Part shown: piece after piece, positions 13,508 to 37,900 of the stretch
Layout: each line of letters starts with the position of its first letter
Position numbering within the stretch: the first letter of the stretch is position 1
Assembly (NCBI RefSeq): GCF_037042905.1
Contig: NC_087245.1
Coordinates: 31,560,001 to 31,624,000, forward strand
DNA length: 64,000 nucleotides
Reading direction: 5' to 3'
Origin: Lytechinus pictus
Lineage: Eukaryota
Position numbers and translations under genes: made by a program
The notes under the pieces: model-generated
The model's database searches: none
What the model saw: only the letters and a program-made list of their open reading frames with translations
Told to the model about the DNA's origin: nothing

Positions 13508-13744
13508 ATGATACGCGTTGGTGTCTTGTTCTCCGTCCTGGGCCTGGTCCTGTTTTCAGGACCAGGACCCTCTCTTGGTTTTATTGAAACTCCGCCTCCT
13601 CCCGCCGGCAGTGTCAATGATGAAGGAAGTGCAACGCAATTCTTGGATGAATATAACACCGAGGCCATGGAGGTGTACTCTCACTCTTCCTTCGAAGCGT
13701 GGGATTATTACACCAATATCACAGCTTATAACCAGGAGAAAATG
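13508..13744 (+). CDS. ACE: ACE exon 1 (signal peptide, N-terminal helix)
   Basis: [24 protein letters not shown]...[17 protein letters not shown], then GTAATT. Confidence 0.9.
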
Positions 13745-16006
13745 GTAATTATAGATTGGTGGTGGTGGTGGTGGTGGTGATGATGATGATGATGATGGTG
13801 ATGATCATGACGGTTATCATGATGAGGGTGATGATGATGGTGGTGATGATGATGGTGATCGGATGATGATGATGGTGGTTATAGTGGTAATAAAAAACAT
13901 TTGTATAAGCGTCATAAGTATAAAAAAAAATATTCAAAGGCTCCATGCTCCCACAGTATACATTTACATTACATTTTACACATCGTTGCTTGAAAAGACA
14001 GGTCTTTAGTTCAGATTGGAAGGTCTCAATATTGTTAAAATTACAAAGTTGGATTGGTTGGAATCATGGGCGGAAATCCCAGGGGGGACGTGTCCCCCCT
14101 ACTCAAAATAGTAGGGGGGACACAATATCAGATTTCCCCCCTACTATTTTTGGTCTTTTATGATGGTAAGTAATACATCATTCAAAATCGAAATAAAACA
14201 TGTGTTTTAGGACGAGATGACCTGACTTTTGGAATGATAACTTTTTTTTTTTGCTTGTCAAATTTATTTTCGTCGAAATGACCTTTAATTTGGGGTGATA
14301 AGCTTTTTTTTTTTTTTTTGCTTGTCAAATTTTCCAGCCCCTTGTCCCCCCTACCTTTTGGGAGAGATTTCCGCCCCTGGTTGGAATGAAGAAATACAAA
14401 CGTATTCATACTTATAACGAAAAATAATTGCTTTACATTTTCTCTAGCTTATCAACATGTAGTATCAAAAAATCGACAAAGGGACCTTCACAACTCTCTT
14501 ACTTTTAAATCGTTTTTATACGTATAAAAGAAAATAATGACAAGCAACGGCAAACAATGTAAAATGCTACAACTACAGTAATAATAATAATCGAAACTGA
14601 ATTTTGGTAACATCATATATCGCCTACTACTAAGTAATTGTGAAACGAGTTATAAATTTTGTTAAATGAGAAATGAGCATATTTGTTTAAAAGTACCGAA
14701 AAGTAATTGTTACATGCACTGATTGAGCATGTTTCGTAAAGCATTTTGGAAACATGGACAAGTCCATATACTCACTTTTTCATAGAATTGAGACATTGTA
14801 TATTTCTTTATTAGTAATAAATCAATATGGGTAAGTGCTTCTAATATAAAATGACATTGATTTTTTAAAAGACATTTAGAGAATTTGATTTAGTTGTTAT
14901 TAGTTTGATTTATTATATGACACCACCTTGTTGATTCACACACAAAAAAGGCACAACTGATAAAAATTGATTTAATCATCAAAAATATACATTTAAACAA
15001 AACATGAAGCCACGTTCTTGCAATGGTATTTTTGTATATTAACATGAAAGTAAGCTTTTACAGTTGTCATAATCCTATTTAATCAAAGATGACACCAAAT
15101 ATCTGACACGATTATCACTCTTTGGTTCTAATGGTTTTATCGTCACACAGGTCCAAGCAAACATCGAAAGTGCAAATTTTAGTAAGGTGATGAGTGAGTA
15201 CGCAAATGCATTCGATCAGACGGGATTTAGCAACGATACCAAGAGACAACTCGATAGCATACGATTTATCGGATCGGCTGCTCTGCCAGACGATGAACTC
15301 AAAGAGGTAAATTTAAAGCAAAACTTGTTATCATTCGAAACAAATTCACGAAGACATTTATTGAGAAAAAAAAAATTCCGTTTAATAGCTGGTAGTTAGA
15401 GGGGGAAGCTCACCTCGACGATAAGTTGGTTTTAATAAAAGAAAAATTGGGAGTGAAGTCAATCCACCAAAGAATAACGGAGTTGTGAATTTTAAAAGTT
15501 GTCGTCACCGACGAACAGCTCCTCCGTATGTCATATGATATGAATGTTATTTACATCACATACGCATAAGAAACAGAGTTCAAGCAAAACCTGCTTGTAG
15601 TATTTCAATACTCCGAACGTTATTTTGATAAAATGAATAATCAAACAATAATTGTCTTTTCCCCTCAGATTTTAACCTTCATGTATGCTCCATTCTAAAA
15701 ATGTTATTAAAAAAACACACAAATAAAACTAAGTATGTAATACCGCGATATCTATTTTCCAACTCGGTCAGTTAAAAAGCTATCCAATCCAGTCAAATGC
15801 GCATAAAGTAAAGTGTGATTCAAATACTTTCAAAAGGATAAAGATTGTATAGAGAAAAAGTCAGTTTACAAAGAACATTTTCCATTCTAGTTGGACCGCT
15901 TTTTTTATTTTTCGGTAATAATGATTTGATTTTCTTCCATGATTCTATTCCCAGCCTCATACAAGCTCTACCTGGTCCAACCTCTTTTTCATTTATTTTT
16001 TGTATG

Positions 16007-16055
<49 letters not shown>

Positions 16056-19000
16056 AACCTATATACACATGTTAGCAGAATATATGAATATGCTAACATG
16101 TGTAGGTTACAATATATACTGTATATATATATATATATTATATATATATTATATAATAACAATATATATTGTAACCTTCACATGTTAGCAGAATGTGTTC
16201 TTGGAATGTATTTATATCATGCTGTGTTAACTGTATCATCAGTGTAAATATGGGCAAATGAAGTGGAAAATCATGAAACAAGTGATTTTAATCGAAATGC
16301 ATTTATTCAAATTTGTATTGTCTTCATTTGAAATCTATATAGCTTCAAGACATTCTGTCTAATATGGAGACTCGCTATTCAACTGGAAAGCCGTGTGATA
16401 TGGATGGAAAATGTTATTCTCTTGAGCCGGGTGAGTGATATATTTTCCCTCATTCTCTCTCATTTTCTTCTATTCATATACTGTTTGTTCCTTGGAGTGA
16501 TTCTCGAGCATATCATATAAAATTACAAACGACCTTACAAATAATTGCGATAGAAGCACTAAATGAGAGCCCTACGTTTTTCTCGATGAAACGAGGCTGT
16601 CGCAAATTTTGTTTTATAATAACAACAAAAACCGCAAAGTTTCCAGTTTGAACCAATGATGGTTGTGAAGAAATCTTCCTTAAACCCCGTTTGAACACCT
16701 TTCTGGTTCTTGGGAAATATTCTGAAGTCCCAAATATTGGATGAGATAGAATTCTTATCAGGACATCTTTTTTTTATACATTATTTAGGCCTATATATTT
16801 CTTCTCATATAAAATGTGATAAATGTATTATAATTCGTAGCAAAATAAGTTCGTCATGATCGGTAAATATTGGTGTTTACACTCTATGTATCAATTTTAT
16901 CCCAAAAGTAATCTGCAAAAAGTCTCCGAAAATAGTACATGTACATAATAACGACTAAACTCAATTCCTCATCCAAATTGAGTTAAACGTGGTATGTTGT
17001 TACTTGTGTGTAATTTATATCCCGGAATTCCATCCAAAAGTACGGGCAAATGAATGAAAGTTACCAAAATCCTCCCTGGATATACACAAAAACCATTCCT
17101 GATTTACTCAAAATGGACTTTGGGCGTTCTTATTGACTGATTGATACAGAATTAATTTCATTTCAAATTTTCAACTATGCAATTACAAAGTAAGGCGAAA
17201 GATAATAATTAAATAAAATTACATGTATAGCATCCCTGGTAGCTTGGAAGCTCCTGAAAGTTCAGTTCACCTTGTCCCTAGCTTGAATAAATGAAAAAGT
17301 GACATATAAATAAATACAAAATTAGAAATATAGGCCTACTCATATGACAGAAATGCAAATTTATATTTATACATGTAGTATATCATTTATTTACACTTTT
17401 TATAGATCTCACCCGGATAATGGCTACATCACATGATTACTACGAGTTATATTGGGCCTGGAATGCATGGCGTGCCGAGGTCGGGGCACCTGCCCGAGAG
17501 GATTACAAGAGATACGTCGAGCTGAAAAATCAAGCTGCGGTAGCAAACGGTAAGGGGTATATCAGTCAGGGGCATATCCGAAGGGAAGGGGGCGGGGCGC
17601 ATTCTCTTCAGGAAAAATAGGATTAATAACAGATAACAATACATACGTGTGTGTTATGTGTTTGTTGGAGGCCCTCCCCTTGGCGTCGATGGGCAGGTTG
17701 GATTTGATTGGAGCATGGACCTACTTTGGAGTGATGACCCTTATTTAAATTTTCCTTTGGGGCTGCTTTTTGAAGAAAATTGGTGGGAATGTGAAAAATG
17801 TGGTGACCCCTAAACACTTTTCCCTTTTCTTCGTGTCATGTTTTTTTAAAGAAAAAGTTGGGCTCCATGCTGATCAATCCTGGATCCACCGTTGAGGGGA
17901 ATAGAAAGAAATGGGGAGGAAAGGAGGAGGGAGAACAATACAGAGAGAGAGAGAGGTAGTCGGGGAAAAGAGAAAAGGGAGAGAGTGGATGACAGAGTGT
18001 GATAGAAGAGAGAGAGAGAGAGAAGAAAAAAGAAAGGGAGGAGGGGGAGAGAGATGTCATATATGGGATAGAGAGCAGTATAGTTTAAAATAACTTTTAC
18101 GAGTAATAGCCTCGGCCCTTCCATTAAAATATGTCAATTCATTCAAAATAGATATTACTTGTCAATAAGATATGACTCGACACTTCCTTATTCTTTTGTT
18201 TCAACTACATTGGTGTGTTTTTATTCATGATTATTACTGCCACAAAATTTTATTTCATGATTTATGATGCATGGGAGAAGTAAACAAAAAACGATCAAAG
18301 CTCATAACACCCTTAGTAATATGCTCATAAATAATAAAGTACATACATTTGCTCGTCATAACTCGACTCTAATCATTTTGGTATTTATATTGTTCTCTTT
18401 CCGTTTCCAATCATCATTTTAAGGATGTTGATGAAGACCAGACACTAGATTGTTCTAAAAGAGATAAAGAATTAATGAAAACGGGATCAGAGTAAGGTCA
18501 ATCAAATGAAAACTTGTATTAAAGTTCATCCGATTGACTAGTTTATTCTAACAAGAAGATGATATAATAATGATAATGATATCAACGAAATGATATTTGT
18601 ATAGGTTCGATTAATTACACTACAACATGTCTTTAGATTTCTCTTAAACGATTCCAATAATAATTAGACAAGCATACATAGCACTGCTGCACTGGAAGTT
18701 TCATAAAAATCGGATGTAAATAAGAAAGTCATGGCTTCTAAAAATTTTGCTTATTTTGATAATACTGTTGAATATATATCATAGTATGGAAATCTAGGAG
18801 CAGACTAAATTATTCTCCATTTCATCATATTGAATATACATGTAAATTATTTCAAATTGGTTATTAGATTTTAATGATGTATTAATGATATAAGTGATGA
18901 TAAAACAATAAATCATAAAAATACAAAGTTAGTTTTTTTCATTAAGAGGCAAACCGAATCAAAACAAGTTTTTCATCATGGGATGAAAGAATTTGACTAA

Positions 19001-22000
19001 TTCATTTGATAAAATCGGGATTTTAAAAATCGAAAATCTTTAAATAAAATACAAAATAAATTACGAGTTTGTGACCATTTGGGACATCATTTGTTCCCAT
19101 TTTGTTTCCCGCCCGTGATTTTCATCTCTTGATAAGTAGACCTTCTAAAGAATCATATTTGTTAGCTTTCATATTTTCCAACCAAGGCAATAAACTCTTC
19201 AGTGTTTGAATTGTTAGATTTTTCCCTTTAGTTTGACAAACAAATTACATTTTTGGGGATGGACTCCCGTGGTTGACTTGGTCTATAACAGGTTCTTGAA
19301 TTAATACATATTCTATTTTTTTTAAATATATACTAAAGGTCATTTCCCCTCCTTTTCGTTGCAAATTCTTGCAACATCCTGTTGGGAAGGTAAATTTGTC
19401 AAACCAACAATCTTTTGTTCGTTAGTTTGATTTGTATCCAAAATCCAGTGACGCCCCTTAACAGTTTGTATAATGATCGTGATTGTATCATAAAAAGGCT
19501 AATAATGACAGTTATACGAAGCGGAAGGCGAGATTTTATAAAGATGTATTGACTATAGCATAATATTATATTAAAAAGTGTGTGATTGAACTCGAACCGA
19601 GCTCTCTCCCGACAGATATTTTATTCTATACAAGCATTATGAGTGTGTTTTTTCAAACTATGCATATGTTGGTGGACCTAGAGTCTTTTATTATTGGTAC
19701 AAAAAAAGAGAAGGATAATACCCACAGAGAATATCATGGGAGGTATTATAGTTATTTAGGTCTCAGCTGGGCGGTGTTGAGGAAGGGGTGGGGGCAAAAT
19801 TACCTAAAGATGACGTCATGTCTTTTAAATTTCAATTGCAGGTGTATTGTAGGTTCACACGACCCATGCCTCTCCTGATTGTATTTTTCTTCTTTATTAT
19901 TTACTTCATCCCCTCCCTCTCTGTCTCTCTCTCTCTATTTATCCCTTATTCACAACTTGGAAAAAAAATAATAATATGGGGGCGATCACCACTGCCCCTG
20001 TGACATAATCCTGTTACATGTTAAAGGGAAAGTCTTCCCTAATTTAAGGATTTTACTAAAAATTCCGAAAATGAAATAAACATCAGTTAATGTTTGACGA
20101 GAATCCATAAAACTGAAAAAGGTTATGAATTTTTAAAGTTTGATAATACTTGGTTCTTTTATAGCGCATCACACATATCAGATTGTATGTCCCTATGCGC
20201 TAAAAGTATAGGAAAAGTATAAAGTAAGAAAAAAAAGCTCAGTATTACTTGTACAAAAAAATCAGTATTGGACACTGAGTTCTCTGGCAAAGTGTTGAAT
20301 AAGTATCTCATAAGATAAACTTTGAACTAAGTTACTTTGGTATCTCATGGAATCAGGTGCAGGTACCCCATGTGATCTGATGTTGCCCTTTTTTCTGAGC
20401 TACAAAACATTCTGCCTCTTCTATGAAGTCTGCATAAATCCTTGAAAGATTCAAATTCTGGTTTCATATTCTTTAATTTGAGAGACAGAATAAAATAATT
20501 ACACACTTTGTTGTTGACTAGCAATCAATATTTTCGGTTATACTATTTTTATCATCAAATATAAGAAACCAATTCTAGAGATCGATTTGAATCATATATT
20601 TCTATCTTTTTATTTCATTTTCTCAGACAAACCGGATGCAGGGGCGTACTGGAGATCTTATTACGAAGTGGACAATCTGCCAGAGATCGCAGAGAAGCTA
20701 TACGATGAGCTGAAACCCCTGTATGAGGAGCTTCATGCCTATGTGAGGAGAAAGCTGTACAACCGATACGGCTGTGATTACATCAACCTACGAGGACCTA
20801 TCCCAGCACACATCTTAGGTTATTATTTGGATATCATTATCACTGGCTTGGGCCACGAATCCCCCAAATTTTAACAGCCTAGGAAAAAGGGAGGGGAAAA
20901 AACGAAAAGGGGTGAAATATAATATCCTTTTTTTTCAATGTTAAAATCTATCGTAATTTATTTTTGTATGAAAAAGGCGAAATATTTGCTCGCTCGTTTC
21001 GCTCGCCGCAGCTTTTCAGAATTTGACTCATATGCCATGTCTGCCCCCCTCATTTTGGCTCATTGCGCGACTTGGTAATTCTAATAATTTTTATGACCAA
21101 CATTACCAAATTCACTTTAAACTTTTTTAAACAACTTGTTTAACACATTAAATAACTTGTTTAACAATATAAGCAATAGTTAAAGAGTGACGGGCTTAAA
21201 ATGAAAAACATTGTTTTCAACTTTTTACAGTGTAAAAGGGAAGAAATATGGCTTCAAGAATTTAGGGAGCAAGCAACTTGATTCTATACAATCAATGATA
21301 AAATAGTGTTTTTTCAGACTTATATCCTGAGATAATTTTAACATTTCAAAGATTACATGACAATAGTAGAACCGCTTTATACAACTTTAAATCTACAATG
21401 TTGAAAAATTGCATTCTACTTTGTAATGAAGTTAGAAAGACTACCCATGAAATTAACAGTATGCACCACAAACTTGTTTTATATAAATAACAGGCATAAT
21501 AAAACGAACATTTGGTGAAAATGGATTCCTTATTGGTTGCCAAAAATAGAATACATCCGGGTCACGGGATTGAAACGAAATATATGAACAAGATCATATT
21601 CATCAGAATTAAAAGCTCCATTGTTTTGCCCCCCCCCCCTCTCTCTCTTTATCTACCTTTCGCTATTTTACACTTTCAACAGGTAATATGTGGGCTCAGT
21701 CATGGATCAACATTTACGACATATGCGAACCGTTCCCTGGAAAACAAGCAGTCGATATTACCCCAGCCCTCGTCGAACAGGTAAATCACAGATAAATTGA
21801 TTCATTAGTCAAACAAATGAAGTTATTTTACGTTTTCCTTAGAAGCGTCGGGGAGCATTTCATGAATGGACTTGTCGGACGTTTTATCCGACAAGTCCTG
21901 TTTTATCCGACAGTTACCATAGTAACAGTGCCTCTCAGCCAATCAGAGTCAAGGAAACTTGTCAGATCTGACAACTTGTCAGACAAAAATGTTTATGAAA

Positions 22001-25000
22001 CACTCCCTGGTCTTGTTATTCTGAGTTTCGTCTTTCAATCAGAGGGTCGTGGGTTCGAATCCATGCCACAGTGTTCCTTCAGCAATAACTCGTCAACATT
22101 ATATTCAGTTGTATTCAATGTGTACCTGACAGGAATACTCGTTCCTTTAAAAAATGCTTGTGCGTTGGGATATATTAGGCTTATTATGATTGTCATGATG
22201 ATTGGTATCAATACTGCTTTTATCACCAGTTCACCAACACTAACATCATCATCACCATCACCAACACCGCCGCCACCACCACCACCACCACCATCATCAT
22301 CCTCATTGTCATCATCATCATCATCATCATCATCAATTATCATCATCATCATCATCTCCATCATCAACATCATCATCAACACCACTATCATCATTACAAT
22401 TATTTGTACAATAATAAAGCGTGAATGATTTGATAAGGTAAACTAAATTCCTCCTCATTCTTGTGCTATAGGCTCCCGGGATAGGCTCTATGTCATTATT
22501 TCAACTATGTCCATTATTAATTTTGTAAAGTGGCCTTATCTTGACAATAATACAATAGTGACAATTTTTTATCATTCATGTGTACTAATTTGTATTGTTT
22601 TGTTCGTTTACGCGCGATTTCTCTGATAAAAAAAACATTGGCTGATCTACAATGATCAAAGGTAATTTTACCATGGTTGAATCAAAATTATTTTCGATGT
22701 ATTTCTCTTATTTAGGGCTATGATGCTTTGCAGATGTTCGAACTCTCGGATGAGTTTTTCAAATCGCTCGGTCTGATCAAGATGCCTCAAGAATTCTGGA
22801 ATCATTCCATGATTGAGAAACCAGATGATGGTAGGGATGTAGTATGTCACGCATCGGCCTGGGACTTCCTCAATCAAGTGGACTTCAGGTGAAGACAAAC
22901 TGAGATAACTTTGGGAATTTAGGCCACTGGCATACAGATAGAGGGGCGCTTGGGGGCTCTGACCCCTTTCCAAAGTTCCATCCCACCTCCCCCCCCCAAA
23001 AAAAAAAAGAAAAGGATGAAATGATTGAGTAAGAAAAAAAGGTGAAACATGATATTGTTTGTTTAAATATTGTGTCAAAATCTATCACTAATAAAATTTA
23101 TTACATTTTCATCAGTATTAAAATACCAACATTTTCACTCGCTCGCGATTTTTGAAAATTTTCTCCACATACACTACTAGTATGTTGTACTGTGCCCCCT
23201 CGAAATTTTTGTGGCTCGTTACGCCACGGATATAGGCCTACAATCAAGTAAGAAAAAAATGGAACATGGTATAAACGCAGAGGATGTTTGATTAATCTTT
23301 TTTTCTCCCCTCCATGTGGGGAAGGGGAAAACCTCTGTTTATCTCAAAGTTGGACATTGAACACTGCACAGGAGGGTATCTTGATTATCAGACCTACATC
23401 ATGTACCATTTTAGAAACACATGACCAGTCTTATGATTGATTTTAACTGCAAGTATCGCAAACTGTACATTGCATTGTTAAAATATGATATTGTATTACT
23501 ATGGCATATAGGAGTTTATCAGTCCATAATTAGAGTCTTATCTTAAGGCGGAATTTGAGGACTTTGGTTCTTTCGTAATCCTGTAATCTTAGAGAGCTAT
23601 ACACAAAACATAAAGAATTTTTGATTCATTTTGCGTTATATAAATATAATTTCATAATTATTCATTATAATTTTCATTATTATCATCAGCATCATCATCA
23701 CCACCATCGTCATCATGATCATTAAATTGTTACCTTCATCAACATCATCATTAAATTGTTACCTTCATCAACATCATCATCATTATCATCACATCATCAC
23801 CATCAACATTATCATCATCATCGTCGTCGTCATCACCACCACCATCATCATCATCCTTATGGTCATCATCATCACCATCGTCATCATCATCCTCATCACC
23901 ACCATCACCACCACCATCTTCATCATCATCATCATCATTATCATTATATATGAGAATTCTATGATATCCTTCATTATGATGCAGAATCAAGCAATGTACT
24001 GACATCACCATGGATGACTTCATCACGATCCACCATGAGATGGGACACATCGAGTATTACCTTCAGTACAAGGATCTACCCGTGGTATACAGGGGCGGAG
24101 CCAACCCAGGATTCCACGAGGCAGTGGGCGACGTCCTCGCTTTGTCTGTATCTACACCAAAACATCTGCAACAAGTCGGGTTGATTGATGAAGTGGTGGA
24201 TGATGACGGTATTAAAACTTGTATTTCTTTGTTTTTTTTCTTTCATCATGAAAACCACCACCACAACCATCGTCATTATCATCATCACCACCACAACTAT
24301 CACGATCGTCGTCGTCATCATCATCACCATCACCATCAACGACAATTCTCTGATATCCTAATGATACAGAATCAAGCAATGTACTGACATCACCATGGAT
24401 GACTTCATCACCATCCACCACGAAATGGGACACGTCGAGTATTTCCTCCAGTACAAGGATCTACCTGTGGTATACAGGGGCGGAGCCAACCCAGGATTCC
24501 ACGAAGCAGTGGGCGACGTCCTCGCTTTGTCGGTATCGACACCCAAGCATCTGCAACAAGTCGGGTTGATTGATGAAGTGGTAGATGATGACGGTATTAA
24601 TATTTTTCCGTTGTCTTCTTTTCACACATATTATAGCTGTAGCAATAAATTCCGATGAGTAATGTGAATCTTTGTTTACCCGTGAGCAAAAGTTTGTATC
24701 TATTGTCTATTGTCATAAATCATTGTTTTCTGGTCGAATGATTGAGCAATAATGAAAAAATGTTAAGCATAAAGGGACTTATTAGTACATTACATTGTAT
24801 TACATTTTTACTCATCTTCTTCTTTGATCTGACCGACACAGAGGCTGATTTGAATTTCCTAATGAGTATGGCTTTGGATAAGATATCCTTCCTACCATTC
24901 GGTTACCTGATGGACCAATACAGATGGGGAGTGTTCAACGGATCTACCACCGAAGATCACTATAACGAGGACTGGTGGAAACTAAGGTATTGTTTTAATT

Positions 25001-28000
25001 CTCGAAGATTCAGGCATCAAAATGTACGGAAGTTTTAAAGTGCTATCGACGTGAAGAGATGATGAGGTATCTTGTCAAAGTTTTATATCGACTTGGCGAG
25101 ATGCACGACCTCACCACGTCGACTTATAAAGAGTTGTATGTCAACACGGCGAGAGATGCGATTGACGTATCTCGCCAAGTCAGCATAAATAAGACCTTTT
25201 TATGTCGACACATCTCTTCATATCATCAAGTTGGTGGAACTTTAAACTTTAAAGGTTCAGTACAATGGAGATTCGTATTGAGACTTGATTTCATAAACTT
25301 ATAAAGTTTGTTGTATATTGAAATGCATATGTCTTTTGTTCTCTTTACTCAGATATGTCGGGAGATCTCTTTTATTTTTAATGTTTTTTCTTCTTCAAGT
25401 TATTCCTTTGTTTTTGATGATTTGAATGTCAATTAAAGCGACTAATTACTATAATTAGTTTGAAGTGAACATCATTATTTTCCATTTACTTTAGACTCCG
25501 GTACCAAGGTATCATACCGCCGACACCAAGGAGTGAAGAAAATTTTGATCCAGGGGCAAAGTACCACATCCCAGCAGACGTGCCGTATATCAGGTATGGA
25601 TGCAGGCTATGTTACAGTGGAAAAAAAAACTCCGTCCCTCGGACAGGACGTTAAATGGAGGCCCCGTGTAGAGGAGAATCACCACATTTGTACGTTAAGA
25701 ATCCACTGTACTATTCGTATAAGAGTACGGGGAAACCCCGGGGGGGGGGCCGGGGAACCCCGGTGTATAGTCACTGTGGTCCACCTGCACCCCCCATCAG
25801 TTATCTCGGGAGGAGAGACCTGCGGTTCATAGTGATTCAGTTCGCTTTTCGCCTCCCATGCACAGATGACGCCAAACAATCAAACAAACAACAACAATAC
25901 TACTACTATTACTACTACTACTACTCATGATAATAATAATGATAACAACAATAATAATAATAATAATAACAATAATATTTATAGGAGTTTTCTTCCTGAA
26001 ATCATACAGATACCATAAACATTTTTAACAATGAAATAATGTATTAGAGCATGACAGTCATGTATACATAAGACTGTTATATATAACTTAACACATATTG
26101 TTATTCTTTCCTTAGTTGATTAATCTTCCATACATTCCTTAATTTCCGTTTGTTTATAGAATATTGATTACCTTTCATCGGGTGCCTGTTTCGTTAACCC
26201 GTACCATTCTTTATCATTCTAAATAATCTGCAGATATTTCATCAGTTTTGTCCTGCAATTCCAATTCCACGAAGCCCTTTGCCAAGCCGCTGGTCAATAC
26301 GGTAATGCTGGTGACGAACCTCTATATAAATGCGATATATACCAATCACAAGAAGCCGGTCAATTGCTTGCGTGAGTATCTTTGTAATGATATTAAGGAG
26401 TTGGAGGTGCCGTGACCTAGTGGTCTAAAGGCGACCGCACACCTTACGATTGGTCTGCGACCCGATTTCAGAATAAAACGTATATAATTTGATGCTAATA
26501 TTGAGACTTGGAATATCTTACTGTGTAATGTTCAAAATCATCAAACGAATACCTATGTTCAAATCTGTGACTATGCTCTCATCCTTCTTAGAATAAAAGC
26601 AAACTTAATATCTAGTCGTAATGAAGTCATAGCAGTCGTACGATTGGCTACGATTTGAAACTAATTTGGCCTTTACTCCAAAATAAAGGCTTGCAATCTT
26701 TCAAAATGGTTATATTAGTATCCTTTCAATTAATATTAACCTCAAATAAAATGATATGTTCCATTCACATTTTCAGAAAATTAGAAAAATGCAATTTGTT
26801 CCAAAATCGGATCGCAAACAGTCGTAAGGTGTGCGGTGGCCTTAAGGCGCTTGACTCGATGCATAAAAGTCCGGGGTTCGATCCCCCGGCAAAGATACTT
26901 ATACCCGTGAGCACGAGCATTTTATCTACTGTGTTCTTTTTATCCTAGATTAAAATAATGGAAATGTCATATTGTTATTAGTGGTAACTATGTGTGTGTA
27001 CTTGTTTAAAAAATAAGTTGATAACTGTTACTCTTGATAAATATCTATTTTTATTATTTTCCAATGCCCCTTCTGAAGTCTAGGGGCCGTTTCATGAAAG
27101 TTGTCAGCACTGACAAGTTGTCTTTCTCCGACAGTTACCATAGTAACAGTCAGAGGCCAGTGCCTCTCAGCCAATCAAAACCTAGGATTTCACTGAGATT
27201 GTCAGCACGGACAATTTAGTCAGTGCTGACAACTTTCATGAAACACCCACCGGTGTAACATAGACCTTAGTCAATCTGCTAAAATTCTAGGAAGCTGAAA
27301 AGTGTCGAAATTTTGTTTGCATTGTATGTTCCTTATGTTTGGATTGTTTCCTCGTGCTCTAATTGTAGAGAATTTTTTTTGGGGGGTATTATTCCCAGAC
27401 ATTATATGCAATTAATTTGAGTGTAAATTGGTCAGATTATTTTACTGGGTTCAATTTAGTCTGGTCTACAGTTGTGGTTAAATTCTTTAAAGCACAACCG
27501 TAGACTAGGGGACCGTTTCATGAAATGAGTTGTCGGACGTTTTATCCAACAGTTACCATAGTAACATTTCTTCTCAGCCAATAAGAATCAAGGAAATTTG
27601 TCAGATATAACAAATCGTCGGATGGAAATGTTAATGAAACGCTCCCCATAGATTATTGAACCCAGTTCAGAAAACGGGCCAATAATATTTATGTTTCTTT
27701 TTTCCCCCACTTCAATATTCATTACTGACCTCTTAACTACAAATTATCTTAAGTTTGGATGTGATGAAAAGGAATATTCGATTTAGTTACTTTTATTCTC
27801 ACTTTCACAGTTCAAAATATAAATGATAAGATTATAATCAATATGCTGTGATTATATTCATTAGCGTGATAACGTGTCCCGTCATCTCGACAAGTCAATT
27901 GTAAAGCTTTTAAGAAAGATAATCCAGTATTCTTTTATCATTATTTTAGTGACATGCTGAAGATGGGATCGAGCAGGCCGTGGCCAGAGGCTCTAAAAGC

Positions 28001-29923
28001 CATCATTGGTAGTCAAGAGATCAGCGCTCAATCTCTGATCAACTACTTCCAGCCTCTTATTGATTACCTGAAGGAACAGAACGAGATGAATGGAGACGTG
28101 GTAGGATGGTCAGAGATGTATACTCCTAAAGGTGAGCTTATAACAATACAGGGGCCGCGGAAGCGGGGGGGGGGGGGGCTCAGCCCCCACTCTTTTTCCA
28201 AACCTGTACAAAAACGTAAAAATTACCATATGATTGTGATTTTTTTGCATGATCAACCCCCCCCCCCCCCCCCACTTTGAAAACCGTTCCGCGGCCCCTG
28301 CAATAATTACACAATATAATTATCATACAGTGCGGTACTTTTTGTTTTAGCAATTCTAAATATTCACAACCATTGTTATTATCATCATTATTACCGGTGT
28401 GTTGGCTCAGTTGGTAGAGCGTCCGTCTCACAACCGGGAGGTCGCGAGTTCAAACCCGGCCTTGTCAGACCAAAAGACGTAAAAAGATGGGAGTTGCTGC
28501 TACCCTGTTTGGCGTTCAACGATTAAAGGGATAGAGCCTCATCGATCTGGCGCTGCACAGCGGCTGCCGGGCCCACGATCAGTTGGGCAAAACAAATATT
28601 CGGAGTATTTAATTTCATGTCTATTTGAACAATAATATATGGATTTTCATTTCATTTTATTTTTGTGAATAAAAGTTGTTGATGATGATGATGAACAGCT
28701 GTTTTGTTTATTTATCTGAAAGAAAAAAATCAAAAGCACTGGCTTCCCAATTATGTCACATTAATAATTGTTCACAAAGTTGCTGAAAAAGATACGTCTT
28801 TAGTTCATATTTGAAGGTCTCAATATTGTCTTTCTTTAAGTTCATCATGAATTTGCATTTGAAAATATTGCAAATCATTATTTGATATAACAAAGAGAAT
28901 GTGAAAATCGATTGATAATCTGGTTGATATTGATAATCTATAAAAATATTTTGATGTTGAAATGTGCTATTAAATCTGAAAAAAAAAGGCTTGGCCATGC
29001 ATGGCTTGTAGAATCCATCATTATCATGGAATGAAAAATTATACAGTGAAGGAGCAAGGAGGCCAGAAAAATGAAAACAACTTCTTGATAATAGGAAAAA
29101 TATGTGTTTATTTTGTTTCTTTCACTTGTCTTTTCATACATGTTTTCGTCTCTATCCTGCTTGACCAACATTGCAGAACGTAAGTATTGATCCTCATGAC
29201 TTGTAATCATAATTTTCTTAGTGATTTTTCTACAAAAATACTATAATGTTTCATTTAGGACAAATTGCTGAGTATGGATATGAAATGTATGAATTCATGT
29301 AATGAGATCATCTACAAAAGTTCAATATTATTTTTAAATATTTTTTTTCCAAGTGCCTTTTATCACACAAAGTAACAAAATATTACAAGATATAATGAAT
29401 ATGAATACTGTGTATGTAAGACTAACTTGGGTTCCTCAATTTGAATAAGCTAAATATCACACAAGACAGAAGTTCATTATCATATTCGTTTTTAATACTC
29501 TCTATTGGTAATAGTAATGATGTCTTAACATTTTGGAGTTTTGATGGTCATTTGAATATGATGCCTACATCGTATCAGAGACGTGTATGCATTTTACCGT
29601 AATTAATTCATATAGTGACGTAATGAGCTAAAATTTTGAGGGGGCGTGATATTGCATATTGGGTCAAATTTATGAAAAGTTGAAACTTTTTTGGGGGGAG
29701 GCAGGCGTCCTAAGCCCCCCATCTGTACGAAACTGATAAAGTATTTATTTTTTTTACGAAATTGCAAACGAAATCCTATTCGTTCTCTGTCTCTCTCTCT
29801 ATTCCAGCTGAAATGGAGGACGATTTGACAAAATGGAAGAAGAGTTATGAGATGTGGCAGATGGAGATGATGGATTGGAAGAAAACATATGAAGATTACA
29901 AAGAACACACCACCTGTGATTAG
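13508..29923 (+). CDS. ACE: Angiotensin-converting enzyme-like peptidyl-dipeptidase (family M2): single catalytic domain, secreted, ~663 aa, with a WAT-like C-terminal peptide
   Basis: join(13508-13744,15151-15306,16343-16430,17406-17549,20627-20818,21683-21780,22716-22888,[23985-24208 or 24370-24593],24842-24986,25495-25593,26234-26371,27950-28131,29808-29923) = 1992 nt, all introns GT-AG, phases consistent. Signal peptide; [46 protein letters not shown]. Has Gln (ACE) rather than Arg (ACE2) in NMWAQ. Confidence 0.96.
13758..13890. repeat. (GGT/GAT)n trinucleotide microsatellite
   Basis: Direct reading. Confidence 0.9.
14065..14379. mobile_element. hAT-type MITE in ACE intron 1
   Basis: TIR CATGGGCGGAAATC / GATTTCCGCCCCTG; perfect 8-bp TSD GTTGGAAT on both sides. 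Confidence 0.85.
15151..15306 (+). CDS. ACE: ACE exon 2
   Basis: [13 protein letters not shown]...[28 protein letters not shown]. Confidence 0.9.
16010..16052. repeat. (TA)n microsatellite
   Basis: Direct reading. Confidence 0.95.
16343..16430 (+). CDS. ACE: ACE exon 3
   Basis: [38 protein letters not shown]. Confidence 0.92.
17406..17549 (+). CDS. ACE: ACE exon 4
   Basis: [27 protein letters not shown]...NQAAVAN; 144 nt; GTAAGG donor. Confidence 0.95.
20627..20818 (+). CDS. ACE: ACE exon 5
   Basis: [11 protein letters not shown]...[15 protein letters not shown]...GPIPAHIL; 192 nt. Confidence 0.95.
21683..21780 (+). CDS. ACE: ACE exon 6
   Basis: [33 protein letters not shown]; 98 nt. Confidence 0.95.
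21850..22008. mobile_element. MITE (Harbinger-like) with a GTTACCATAGTAAC + CCAAT core
   Basis: Inverted ends GGGAGCATTTCATGAA / TTTATGAAACACTCCC; related copies at ~800-930, 27083-27250, 27507-27647, 48152-48305, 55254-55401. Confidence 0.75.
22010..22180 (+). mobile_element. Degenerate tRNA-derived SINE
   Basis: AATCAGAGGGTCGTGGGTTCGAATCC B-box; similar to 58978-59115. Confidence 0.6.
22716..22888 (+). CDS. ACE: ACE exon 7
   Basis: [20 protein letters not shown]...[17 protein letters not shown]; 173 nt. Confidence 0.95.
23670..23946. repeat. (CAT/CAC)n microsatellite upstream of exon 8a; similar tracts at 22240-22395 and 24244-24340
   Basis: Direct reading. Confidence 0.9.
23985..24208 (+). 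CDS. ACE: ACE exon 8a (zinc-binding exon, HEMGHIEYY copy)
   Basis: GCAG|A ATC AAG CAA TGT...; [32 protein letters not shown]...HEAVGD...; 224 nt; GTATTA donor. Confidence 0.8.
24370..24593 (+). CDS. ACE: ACE exon 8b (tandem duplicate zinc-binding exon, HEMGHVEYF copy)
   Basis: ACAG|A ATC AAG CAA TGT...; 224 nt; 13 substitutions vs 8a; GTATTA donor. Confidence 0.8.
24842..24986 (+). CDS. ACE: ACE exon 9
   Basis: [32 protein letters not shown]...WWKLR; 145 nt. Confidence 0.95.
25495..25593 (+). CDS. ACE: ACE exon 10
   Basis: [33 protein letters not shown]; 99 nt. Confidence 0.95.
26234..26371 (+). CDS. ACE: ACE exon 11
   Basis: [20 protein letters not shown]...[23 protein letters not shown] donor. 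Confidence 0.95.
26429..26842. mobile_element. PIF/Harbinger MITE inserted into a tRNA-derived SINE head
   Basis: TIR AGGCGACCGCACACCTTACGA / TCGTAAGGTGTGCGGTGGCCT; TAA TSD; flanks rejoin to ...CCGTGACCTAGTGGTCTAAGGCGCTTGACT...GGTTCGATCCC (A and B boxes). Confidence 0.85.
27083..27250. mobile_element. MITE (Harbinger-like)
   Basis: GTTTCATGAAAGTTGTCAGCACTGAC / GTCAGTGCTGACAACTTTCATGAAAC perfect inverted repeat. Confidence 0.85.
27950..28131 (+). CDS. ACE: ACE exon 12
   Basis: [15 protein letters not shown]...[30 protein letters not shown]; phase-1 GTGAGC donor. Confidence 0.93.
28149..28300. mobile_element. Short GC-ended MITE 17 nt downstream of the ACE exon 12 donor
   Basis: TIR CAGGGGCCGCGGAA / TTCCGCGGCCCCTG; CAATA on both flanks. 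Confidence 0.8.
28394..28640 (+). mobile_element. tRNA-derived SINE
   Basis: TGGCTCAGTTGGTAGAGCG (A box), GAGTTCAAACCC (B box), non-tRNA body, (TTTTCA)n-like tail. Confidence 0.8.
29808..29923 (+). CDS. ACE: ACE terminal exon 13: cholinesterase-type WAT/T-peptide-like tetramerisation peptide
   Basis: Strong pyrimidine tract + CCAG (29804-29807); phase 1 matches exon 12; [38 protein letters not shown]. Confidence 0.8.
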
Positions 29924-34996: not shown

Positions 34997-37900
34997 GTAT
35001 GTCGGCTCTCTTTTCGTCTTTGCTTGTTTACCTTGTCCCACACGTTCATTTTCATGTTTGTGTACCGGTACGCCAGTACCGGATGAAATGCTTGTTTTAA
35101 CCACTCCTAGTACCAATGAGGTCCAAACATTACATGTATGGACCACTCTAGGCGACACCCCAAGGCAATACTTACCCGTGCTAATAAACTGGGACTCCAC
35201 TCACGCGCATTTGGGCCGCCCTAGCTTAGAACTAAGCAATATTATCTAGAAATTGTTACATTGTAGTCATTAAATATGTTCTATTAAATAAATTGATAAT
35301 GTTTAATCGGTACTCACCGGTTCTTTTGTTGCATTTTCAGACCATTTCTCACAATTCTTCGTAAATATTTGCGGCAAATTTTGTCGCCATAGACAGCTTA
35401 GCATCCATCTTTATTGATAAATGGAGCGCCCTTTACGATAGTTGTTAATGCCGCGGAGAAATCGTTAGGCATTTTGGCCTGTGTTCAAGGCGTTCTTTCT
35501 GTTTTATTTTTTATATTGAAGATTGTGCATTTGTTGAATAGCGCCGTCTACGTCAGGTATGAGATCGAGTGTATAAATACACTCTTCCAAAATAATTATG
35601 ATTCCGACCTGGCGCTGTTTAACTTCAATCTCTTTCACCTAAATTAGCGATGAATGCTAGCATTATAAAATATATATTATTAACGTCTGACGAAAAGAAT
35701 AACCAACCGATCAGCTGACGAGAACGCGAATCACGTGATCTTCATATCAGCTTCGATCGCGAGTCAGAAGAGAAGAGCAGCTGCCCAGAAAATCAGGAAA
35801 AAGCCGTGAAAATGTAAGTTCCCCTTCATTTCTTTCATTTTTTTTTGTTGCTAACGATGCATTTACACTATAAAATTATAATTTAAATAAGAGAAAGGAA
35901 TATAGCTTGTACTTGTGATATAATATATAAATATCCTGTTCTCAGAGATTTCTAACCAAAAATACTACTGATGTCGCCTATGAGGTCCATACATGTAATG
36001 TTGGACCTCATTGGTACTAGGAGTGGTATGGACCTCATAGGCGACATCAGTAGTATTTTTGGTTAGAAATCTCTGAGAACAGGATATTTATATATTATAT
36101 CACAAGTACAAGCTATATTCCTTTCTCTTATTTAAATTATAATTTTATAGTGTAAATGCATCGTTAGCAACAAAAAAAAATGAAAGAAATGAAGGGGAAC
36201 TTACATTTTCATGGCTTTTTCCTGATTTTCTGGGCAGTTGCTCTTCACTTCTGACTCGCGATCGAAGCTGATATGAAGATCACGTGATTCGCGTTCTCGT
36301 CAGCTGATCGGTTGGTTATTCTTTTTGTCAGACGTTAATAATATATATTTTATAATGCTAGCATTCATCGCTAATTTAGGTGAAAGAGATTGAAGTTAAA
36401 CAGCGCCAGGTCGGAATCATAATTATTTTGGAAGAGTGTATTTATACACTTGATCTCATACCTGACGTAGACGGCGCTATTCAACAAATGCACAATCTTC
36501 AATATAAAAAATAAAACAGAAAGAACGCCTTGAACACATGCCAAAATGCCTAACGATTTCTCCGCGGCATTAACAACTATCGTAAAGGGCGCTCCATTTA
36601 TTAATAAAGATGGATGTATAGCTGTCTATGGCGACAAAATTTGCCGCAAATATTTACGAAGAATTGTGAGAAATGGTCTGAAAATGCAACAAAAGAACCG
36701 GTGAGTACCGATTAAACATTATCAATTTATTTAATACAACATATTTCATGACTAGAGTTTAACAATTTCTAGATAATATTGCTTAGTTCTAAGCTAGGGC
36801 GGCCCAAATGCGCGTGAGTGGAGTCCCAGTTTATTAGCACGGGTAAGTATTGGGGTGTCGCCTAGAGTGGTTTTAACTTTTATCATGTTTATTCATATTG
36901 ACTGTGCTTAGCGCTATAAGAATAAACCTAAGCACTCCTAGTACCCATGAGGTCGATACATAAACAGTATTGGGCCTAAATGGCAGTATCGTGAAATTGG
37001 GAACCAGTTCCTAATTTCCACCGGACACTTTTTCACGACAAGACGAAGACATGAAGTTATGAACTAGACTGTAGTGTAGACAGCTGGCAGCCGTCTCGAG
37101 GAGTTTGTAAACATTTTTGTCTCACCTGCATAGCAGAGTGAGACTATAGGCGCCGCTTTTCCGACGGCGGCGGCGGCGTCAACACCAAATCTTAACCTGA
37201 GGTTAAGTTTTTGAAATGACAGCATAACTTAGAAAGTATATGGACCTAGTTCATGAAACTTGGCCATAAGGTTAATCAAGTATTACTGAACATCCTGCCT
37301 GAGTTTCATGTCACATGACCAAGGTCAAAGGTCATTTAGGGTCAATGAACTTAGACCATGTTGGGGGAATCAACATCAAAATCTTAACCTAAGGTTAAGT
37401 TTTTGAAATGTCATCATAACTTAGAAAATATATGGACCTAGTTCATGAAACTTATACATAAGGTTAATCAAGTATCACTGAACATCCTGCATGAGTTTCA
37501 CGTCACATGACCAAAGTCAAAGGTCATTTAGGGTCAATGAACTTTGGCCGAATTGGGGGTATCTGTTGAATTACCATCATAACTTTGAAAGTTTATGGAT
37601 CTGATTCATGAAACTTGGACATAATAGTAATCAAGTATTACTGAACATCCTGTGCAAGTTTCAGGTCACATGATCAAGGTCAAAGGTCATTTAGGGTCAA
37701 TGAACTTTGGCCAAATTGGGGTATTTGTTGAATTACAGCCATAAATTTGAAAGTGTGTTGGTCTAGTTCATAAAACTTGGACATAATAGTAATCAAGTAT
37801 CACTGAACATCCTGTGCGAGTTTCAGGTCACATGATCAAGGTCAAAGGTCATGTAAGGTCAAAGAACTTTGGCCACGTTGGGGGTATTTGTTGAATTGCC

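What the first reader, a model, noticed from the sequence alone, without database searches (positions are those of the whole stretch)
23985..24593. Tandem duplicate of the ACE catalytic (HEMGH) exon: candidate mutually exclusive splicing that toggles the N-/C-domain S2 residue
Seen: two intact 224-nt copies, each with an AG acceptor and a GTATTA donor, 161 nt apart. They differ at 13 sites: 11 synonymous and 2 replacements (HEMGH-I-E-Y-Y vs HEMGH-V-E-Y-F). 224 is not a multiple of 3. Joining both shifts the frame to a TGA at 24567-24569, retaining the intron stops at 24385-24387, and skipping both removes all three zinc ligands, so only one-of-two inclusion is productive. The 11:2 ratio suggests purifying selection on both copies. 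Established: in human ACE the fourth residue after HEMGH is Tyr369 in the N domain and Phe391 in the C domain (testis numbering), an S2-subsite determinant of domain-selective inhibitor binding (RXP407 vs RXPA380). Inference: a one-domain ACE could produce N-like and C-like active sites by exon choice rather than by whole-domain duplication. Caveat: the second S2 determinant (Arg381/Glu403) is Gly in both copies.
Basis: partly seen in the sequence, partly recalled or inferred. Interest (0 to 1): 0.82.

Follow-up and report, generated by a model that had tools for sequence, protein, structure and literature searches.

The report
Alternative active-site exons in urchin ACE
A sea-urchin gene for a one-domain angiotensin-converting enzyme carries two intact copies of its active-site exon that swap one of the pocket residues that distinguish the two halves of human ACE, and gene predictions in crustaceans, snails and stick insects show a similar swap.

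Summary
Observation confirmed. A 13-exon, one-domain ACE has two intact 224-nt HEMGH exons (dN/dS 0.04); only one-of-two inclusion gives a full 663-aa protein. Artefact is very unlikely: RefSeq isoforms X1/X2 of the Lytechinus variegatus orthologue differ only at the same two residues (V384I, F387Y). A paralogue on C3 has four tandem copies, including F/D and Y/R types that mimic human C- and N-domain S2 sites. In 15 of 30 hand-picked protein clusters (echinoids, crustaceans, gastropods), same-length models differ only in this segment; the Tyr369/Phe391 site changes in 13 of the 15, against 46 of 1768 vertebrate orthologue pairs. Not shown: splicing of copy B in this species (two reads support A, none B, depth about 1) and any effect on natural substrates. 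The isoform evidence is from predicted gene models. Arg381/Glu403 is Gly in both window copies, so these are partial mimics. Six aimed paper searches found no description, and the scan had not noted this on other DNA. The last exon also resembles a cholinesterase tetramerisation peptide.

The parts
23985..24208 (+). Exon copy A (Tyr type, HEMGH-IEYY): holds the three zinc ligands; Ile codon 24049-24051, Tyr codon 24058-24060
   Evidence: joint 22888^23985 in 2 RNA reads of X13 that carry the A letter at 24027
24370..24593 (+). Exon copy B (Phe type, HEMGH-VEYF): Val codon 24434-24436, Phe codon 24443-24445
   Evidence: same two residues in L. variegatus XP_041453453 X1; no read laid on it (depth about 1)
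24209..24369 (+). 161-nt intron between the copies: T-rich tract, then a CAT/CAC repeat; no AG before the acceptor; branch-like CTGAT at -17
22716..22888 (+). Upstream constitutive exon (173 nt)
   Evidence: joint seen
24842..24986 (+). Downstream constitutive exon (145 nt)
   Evidence: joint 24208^24842 in the X5 contig
13508..29923 (+). Whole one-domain ACE coding span. Exons 13508-13744, 15151-15306, 16343-16430, 17406-17549, 20627-20818, 21683-21780, 22716-22888, [A or B], 24842-24986, 25495-25593, 26234-26371, 27950-28131, 29808-29923; 663 aa
   Evidence: 641 of 663 residues identical to the matching L. variegatus isoform; PF01401 at E 1e-264 for that isoform
29808..29923 (+). Last coding exon: a 37-aa aromatic-rich tail resembling the cholinesterase tetramerisation (WAT) peptide
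   Evidence: PF08674 E 4.3e-4, 20.4 bits, under the cut-off of 25; best PDB hit 1vzj_A at E 0.023

Best explanation
The pair is a mutually exclusive tandem-duplicated exon of a one-domain ACE (peptidase M2). Each mRNA takes copy A or copy B. Transcripts with both or neither are frameshifted, with stops 4-5 junctions upstream of the last exon, and are probably removed by nonsense-mediated decay (frame shown, decay inferred). The two enzymes keep identical zinc ligands and differ by one hydroxyl in the S2 pocket (Tyr versus Phe at human 369/391) plus an Ile/Val exchange. This should change which residue is preferred at the substrate's P2 position (inferred from human ACE). One gene thus gains two pockets, which vertebrates obtain by whole-domain duplication. 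The pair predates the split from L. variegatus, and gene conversion probably keeps the rest of the exon alike.
For: dN/dS 0.042 with both splice sites intact. Only one-of-two inclusion is in frame. L. variegatus X1/X2 differ only by V384I and F387Y. The sister paralogue on C3 has four copies, three at 224 nt with AG/GT; these three match L. pictus X1-X3, and L. variegatus X1-X3 and S. purpuratus X1-X4 also differ only inside this exon. 15 of 30 clusters show such pairs, and site 369 varies in 13 of the 15. Controls: 46 of 1021 vertebrate N-domain pairs and 0 of 747 C-domain pairs with 2-10 differences vary there, while N versus C differs in 85 of 86 proteins. Y369F alone lowers 33RE binding 36-fold (PMC3875237, passages). 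Tyr369 is modelled as a contact for Ac-SDKP (PMC4585900, passages).
Against: No read on copy B; both L. pictus RefSeq versions and both S. purpuratus orthologue versions list only the Tyr form. Isoforms are predicted models whose read support I could not see, and 94%-identical exons can draw ambiguous reads. Site 381 is Gly in both copies. Procambarus and Biomphalaria pairs do not change site 369, and 14 of 30 clusters show no such pair. Most positive clusters are crustaceans and may share one origin. The quantitative Y369F data read are for an inhibitor, not a substrate. No splicing-control element was found.
Confidence: 0.7

Rival explanations
1. Copy B is a dormant or very rarely used duplicate, kept intact by gene conversion from A; the L. 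variegatus X1 model comes from ambiguous read mapping.
For: No B read; L. pictus and S. purpuratus annotate only the Tyr form. Conversion is active in this family: C3 copies c and d differ at 1 of 123 central sites but 29 of 101 flanking ones (the block was chosen after viewing), and organism B's transcript is an A/B mosaic (runs P 0.015). Two earlier notes in this genome judged other duplicate exons silent (unchecked).
Against: Conversion removes differences but does not sort them into 11 synonymous and 2 conservative ones. The same two replacements stand in two species. Depth was about 1.
Confidence: 0.15
2. Both exons are used, but the Tyr/Phe change is nearly neutral for natural substrates; the pair is simple redundancy.
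For: Only two conservative replacements, each a single-base change. Site 369 takes Y, F, D or Q across invertebrate ACEs.
Against: The site is almost fixed within each vertebrate domain, yet differs in 13 of 15 isoform sets and in 23 of 24 non-vertebrate or unlabelled multi-domain models.
Confidence: 0.12
3. Assembly artefact or two alleles placed in tandem.
For: A-B divergence (13 of 224) is close to that between the window and organism B (36 of 647 over four exons).
Against: Both forms occur as isoforms of one gene in another species' assembly. The repeat unit is only 385 nt, and flank likeness fades within about 100 nt upstream and 30 nt downstream. The paralogue has the same architecture.
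Confidence: 0.03

Closest known systems
Human somatic ACE (two-domain peptidase M2; PDB 7q3y, 3nxq, 1o86)
   Same: M2 domain with all listed catalytic residues kept; Tyr369/Phe391 is the toggled site (PMC2975193 and PMC3875237, passages).
   Different: Two pockets come from exon choice in a one-domain gene, not from two domains on one chain. Only one S2 residue switches in the window gene. The tail is WAT-like, not a membrane anchor.
Tandem duplicated exon substitutions / homologous mutually exclusive exons (PMC9741552, abstract and passages)
   Same: Two homologous same-length exons, conservative substitutions, repeated origin across phyla.
   Different: That survey's main text does not mention ACE or angiotensin (0 hits; its supplements were not read). 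Here the whole zinc-binding exon of a peptidase is switched.
Echinoid C3-type ACE paralogue (XP_063953396-8, XP_041459164-6, XP_003724612-5)
   Same: Same 224-nt exon in tandem; predicted isoforms differ only there; sister to the window gene (SH-aLRT 93, quick tree).
   Different: Three to four copies that are far more diverged; both S2 sites switch (F/D versus Y/R; also D/G and Y/D in S. purpuratus); hydrophobic C-terminus.
Insect multi-gene and two-domain ACEs (Burnham et al. 2005, PMC1325048, passages)
   Same: States that two-domain ACEs arose several times and that the rationale for two catalytic units is not known.
   Different: No mention of splicing (0 hits for 'splic') and no active-site exon duplication in the passages seen.

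Membership tests
Peptidase M2 (ACE) | PF01401 domain above cut-off | tested here: met
   877.6 bits for P0246 and 881.8 for P0245, which matches the window exons exactly
Peptidase M2 (ACE) | HEXXH plus downstream Glu, and conserved H331, K489, H491, Y498, Y501 | tested here: met
   against human N domain P0182
Peptidase M2 (ACE) | Peptidyl-dipeptidase activity | not testable with these tools
   needs an assay
Homologous mutually exclusive exons | Adjacent, homologous, same length and phase, intact splice sites | tested here: met
Homologous mutually exclusive exons | Inclusion of both or neither is unproductive | tested here: met
   stops at 24567 and 24846
Homologous mutually exclusive exons | Each exon seen spliced in transcripts | tested here: inconclusive
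   A: 2 reads and one contig of organism B; B: none at depth about 1; B only as a predicted L. variegatus isoform
Homologous mutually exclusive exons | A mechanism of exclusion (steric block or competing RNA pairing) | tested here: inconclusive
   fold z-score -0.18; only chance-level inverted matches between introns; AG-free intron P 0.014 but in a G-poor common repeat
Human N-/C-domain type active site | Tyr369 versus Phe391 | tested here: met
Human N-/C-domain type active site | Arg381 versus Glu403 | tested here: not met
   Gly in both window copies; met in the C3 paralogue as Arg versus Asp
Cholinesterase tetramerisation (WAT) peptide, PF08674 | Profile match above cut-off | tested here: not met
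   20.4 bits against 25, E 4.3e-4; three Trp, further aromatics and the end Cys align with 1vzj_A

The most novel reading that the evidence does not exclude
Animals repeatedly evolve a Tyr-type and a non-Tyr-type ACE S2 pocket from one gene by two interchangeable routes: whole-domain duplication (vertebrates, sea cucumbers, hemichordates, molluscs) or mutually exclusive duplication of the zinc-site exon (sea urchins, crustaceans, stick insects, gastropods), with several independent origins. The S2 switch would then be the ancient selective reason for ACE's two active sites. In this urchin gene a WAT-like tail may also assemble Tyr and Phe subunits into one oligomer, rebuilding an N+C enzyme from separate chains.
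Probability: 0.3. Interest if true: 0.9.

Novelty: new variant of a known kind. Interest (0 to 1): 0.78.

Why it matters
Why ACE carries two similar active sites is an open question (stated as unknown in PMC1325048, passage). These exon pairs are natural minimal experiments: one protein background in which only the S2 segment changes, in the window gene by two residues. That the switch lands on Tyr369/Phe391, the site used for domain-selective inhibitor design, in separate phyla points to S2 as the selected difference and makes this testable with two recombinant proteins. It also means that single-isoform annotations of invertebrate ACEs, including farmed shrimp and crabs, may miss an active-site variant.

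Tried and rejected
Run search: no RNA holder listed. Three raw RNA runs were read at about 6% each and gave depth of about 1 on the exons, so B use could not be judged. Search for short transcript fragments with a spliced B exon: no urchin-like hit among the 120 listed of 610; best identity 77%. Complex prediction of four copies of the tail: no answer, score 0.06. Competing RNA pairing: fold z -0.18, only chance-level inverted matches; a duplex scan timed out without output. Recent conversion of B from the C3 Phe exon: rejected, both A and B differ from it at 50 sites. A steric block by a distant branch point: not supported, since a branch-like CTGAT lies at -17. My recollection that Anopheles AnoACE7 has alternative active-site exons: not borne out. 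The careful tree did not finish; only the quick tree was used and no clade test was run. Holothurian Tyr/Phe variants differ also outside the exon and were not counted as isoforms. Pfam VPg and other hits at E above 0.01 were taken as chance. One paper search ('AnoACE' anywhere in a word) returned only chemistry papers and tells nothing.

Full report
Observation. Eleven are synonymous and two change residues (Ile/Val directly after HEMGH, Tyr/Phe four after). dS is 0.275 and dN 0.012, and the chance of at most 2 replacements in 13 neutral changes is 2.3e-6. The exon aligns without gaps to human ACE: HEMGH-IQYY with Arg in the N domain, HEMGH-IQYF with Glu in the C domain.

The gene. tblastn with two-domain echinoderm ACEs finds one set of M2 exons in the window and none in the 20 kb upstream. 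A 13-exon model with canonical sites runs from 13508 to 29923. With A or B it gives 663 aa; with both it stops at 24567, with neither at 24846, and with the intron retained at 24385. RefSeq XP_063961610 (Lytechinus pictus) matches the window exons exactly up to its last exon, and its contig length equals that of C1, so the window is most likely from that species. All listed catalytic residues are kept; the pocket is otherwise a fixed hybrid, with Thr358 as in the N domain and Val at 496.

Is the pair real? The L. variegatus orthologue has RefSeq isoforms X1 and X2 of 663 aa that differ only by V384I and F387Y. The window's A form is 641/663 identical to X2 and its B form 641/663 to X1. Two assemblies of two species would not share such an artefact. 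No near-identical copy of the unit was found elsewhere in G000. RNA evidence is thin. In 3 raw runs, each read at about 6%, two reads of X13 cross 22888^23985 and carry the A letter at 24027, and no read lies on B. One contig of organism B splices upstream-A-downstream with the Ile and Tyr codons. At the 12 callable A/B sites it reads BAAAAAAABBBB (runs P 0.015), which suggests conversion between copies outside the block that holds the two replacements. Against the reading: both L. pictus versions and both S. purpuratus versions of this gene list only the Tyr form.

A paralogue does the same. C3 holds a one-domain ACE with four tandem copies of this exon. Three are 224 nt with AG/GT sites; the first is 212 nt with a 12-nt in-frame deletion. 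One is Phe with Asp at the 381/403 site and two are Tyr with Arg, so both human S2 determinants switch together. L. pictus X1-X3, L. variegatus X1-X3 and S. purpuratus X1-X4 differ only within this exon. Two Diadema antillarum models on different contigs differ at 10 residues in the exon and little elsewhere, which is suggestive only. Copies c and d differ at 1 of 123 central sites and 29 of 101 others, a conversion signature, so low divergence does not date a pair. A quick tree of the constant part joins the window type and the C3 type within echinoids (SH-aLRT 93, careful search unfinished). The window pair is either inherited from a shared cluster and homogenised, or a fresh duplicate; B is no closer than A to the C3 Phe exon (50 differences each).

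Other phyla. I listed 30 protein clusters, picked by hand from the 240 rows shown, mostly for having several members or isoform names, so the share is not a prevalence. In 15 of 30, same-length models of one species differ only in this segment: two echinoid genes, Penaeus, Eriocheir, Portunus, Scylla, Petrolisthes, Procambarus, Cherax, Homarus, Oratosquilla, Pollicipes, Littorina, Biomphalaria and Bradybaena (the last under two gene numbers). One (Diadema) is suggestive. Fourteen are negative: the S. purpuratus orthologue, Acanthaster, Asterias, two holothurian clusters, Lingula, Lineus, Tubulanus, horseshoe crabs, two amphioxus clusters, Stegodyphus, Patella and Daphnia. Two Timema models and one Petrolisthes model hold both copies in tandem. 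Site 369 varies in 13 of the 15 sets (10 Tyr/Phe, 2 Tyr/Asp, 1 Tyr/Gln; not in Procambarus or Biomphalaria) and site 381 in 13 of 15. Control: among 86 vertebrate two-domain proteins (16 of 102 rows dropped as unlabelled or non-vertebrate), segments with 2-10 differences vary at 369 in 46 of 1021 N pairs and 0 of 747 C pairs, but at 381 in about half; N versus C differs at 369 in 85 of 86. So 369 is the informative site and 381 is generally variable. Among 24 non-vertebrate or unlabelled multi-domain models, 369 differs between domains in 23, and both Tyr and Phe occur in 20 (counted by hand; some may be fused neighbours). These sets and pairs are not independent; ten of the 15 are crustacean. 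In protostomes the variable stretch ends by position 385, and models read into intron after ANPG, whereas the urchin exon runs about 33 residues further. This favours separate origins but was not tested on a tree.

How it probably works. Shown: the frame allows only one copy, both copies are under constraint, and the switch falls on the Tyr369/Phe391 site. From papers: Tyr369 and Arg381 hydrogen-bond RXP407 in S2 (PMC2975193, passages); Y369F lowers 33RE binding 36-fold (PMC3875237, passages); Ac-SDKP specificity is placed mostly at S2, with Tyr369 as a modelled contact (PMC4585900, passages). Inferred: the isoforms differ in P2 preference, and wrong products are cleared by nonsense-mediated decay. 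How the exon is chosen is open. No RNA structure stood out. The intron between the copies has no internal AG (P 0.014), but it is mostly a G-poor repeat common in this genome.

Comparison and novelty. Homologous mutually exclusive exons are a known kind, often convergent (PMC9741552, abstract and passages; ACE is not named in its main text, supplements not read). For ACE I found no description in six aimed searches (listings only) or one broader search, and none in Burnham et al. 2005 (passages). The library lacks most subscription journals, and genome-wide exon catalogues may list such genes in supplements that I did not see. The isoforms stand in RefSeq and GenBank as predictions. The scan's own notes hold nothing on this sequence or these words. 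I file it as a new variant of a known kind.

Side finding. The last exon (29808-29923), which the L. pictus model replaces by an intron read-through, matches the L. variegatus C-terminus at 95%. It resembles the cholinesterase tetramerisation peptide: PF08674 at E 4.3e-4, below cut-off, also weakly in S. purpuratus, with 1vzj as best PDB hit. A proline run follows the signal peptide. If the tail oligomerises, Tyr and Phe subunits could share one complex; this is a hypothesis only.

Verdict. The pair is real and selected, and probably a working switch (0.70). Rivals: dormant B (0.15), neutral redundancy (0.12), artefact (0.03). Interest 0.78, carried mainly by the recurrence of the same switch across phyla.

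Noticed in passing
window 29808-29923: The last exon encodes a WAT-like (cholinesterase tetramerisation) tail, also present in the L. variegatus and S. purpuratus orthologues; I know of no ACE with such a tail (recalled, not searched).
   Followed up: partly
window 13508-13744: A short proline run (TPPPPAG) follows the signal peptide; loosely like the proline-rich partners of WAT tetramers (likeness recalled).
   Followed up: no
window 28132-28277: RefSeq XP_063961610 reads through the donor at 28131 and misses the conserved last exon; it also lacks copy B.
   Followed up: yes
G000:C3:50960733-50964316 (L018): Four tandem HEMGH exons in a paralogous ACE; the first has a 12-nt in-frame deletion and is in none of the listed isoforms; copies c and d share a converted central block.
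   Followed up: yes
G000:C3:50938000-51033000, C13, C12: At least five ACE genes cluster on C3, with four more HEMGH-type exons on C13 and a diverged one on C12; all but one C3 gene show a single copy of the exon.
   Followed up: partly
P0127/P0249, P0130/P0256, P0257/P0258: Starfish ACE isoforms differ in an alternative N-terminal stretch of about 70 aa, not in the zinc-site exon; Lineus X1/X2 differ at residues 122-145.
   Followed up: no
P0267, P0168, P0189: An Asp at site 369 paired with Gly at 381 appears as an alternative form in both S. purpuratus and decapods.
   Followed up: partly
window 35166-36852: Inverted repeat with 827-nt arms, 98% complementary, 33 nt apart; probably a foldback element.
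   Followed up: no
window 13757-13882 and 23773-23937, 24245-24338: A GAT/GGT tract at the start of intron 1 is 70-80% complementary to the CAT/CAC tracts upstream of both copies; probably chance, as the repeat is common in the genome.
   Followed up: partly
window 25617-25700: An intronic repeat draws over a thousand RNA reads from other loci.
   Followed up: no
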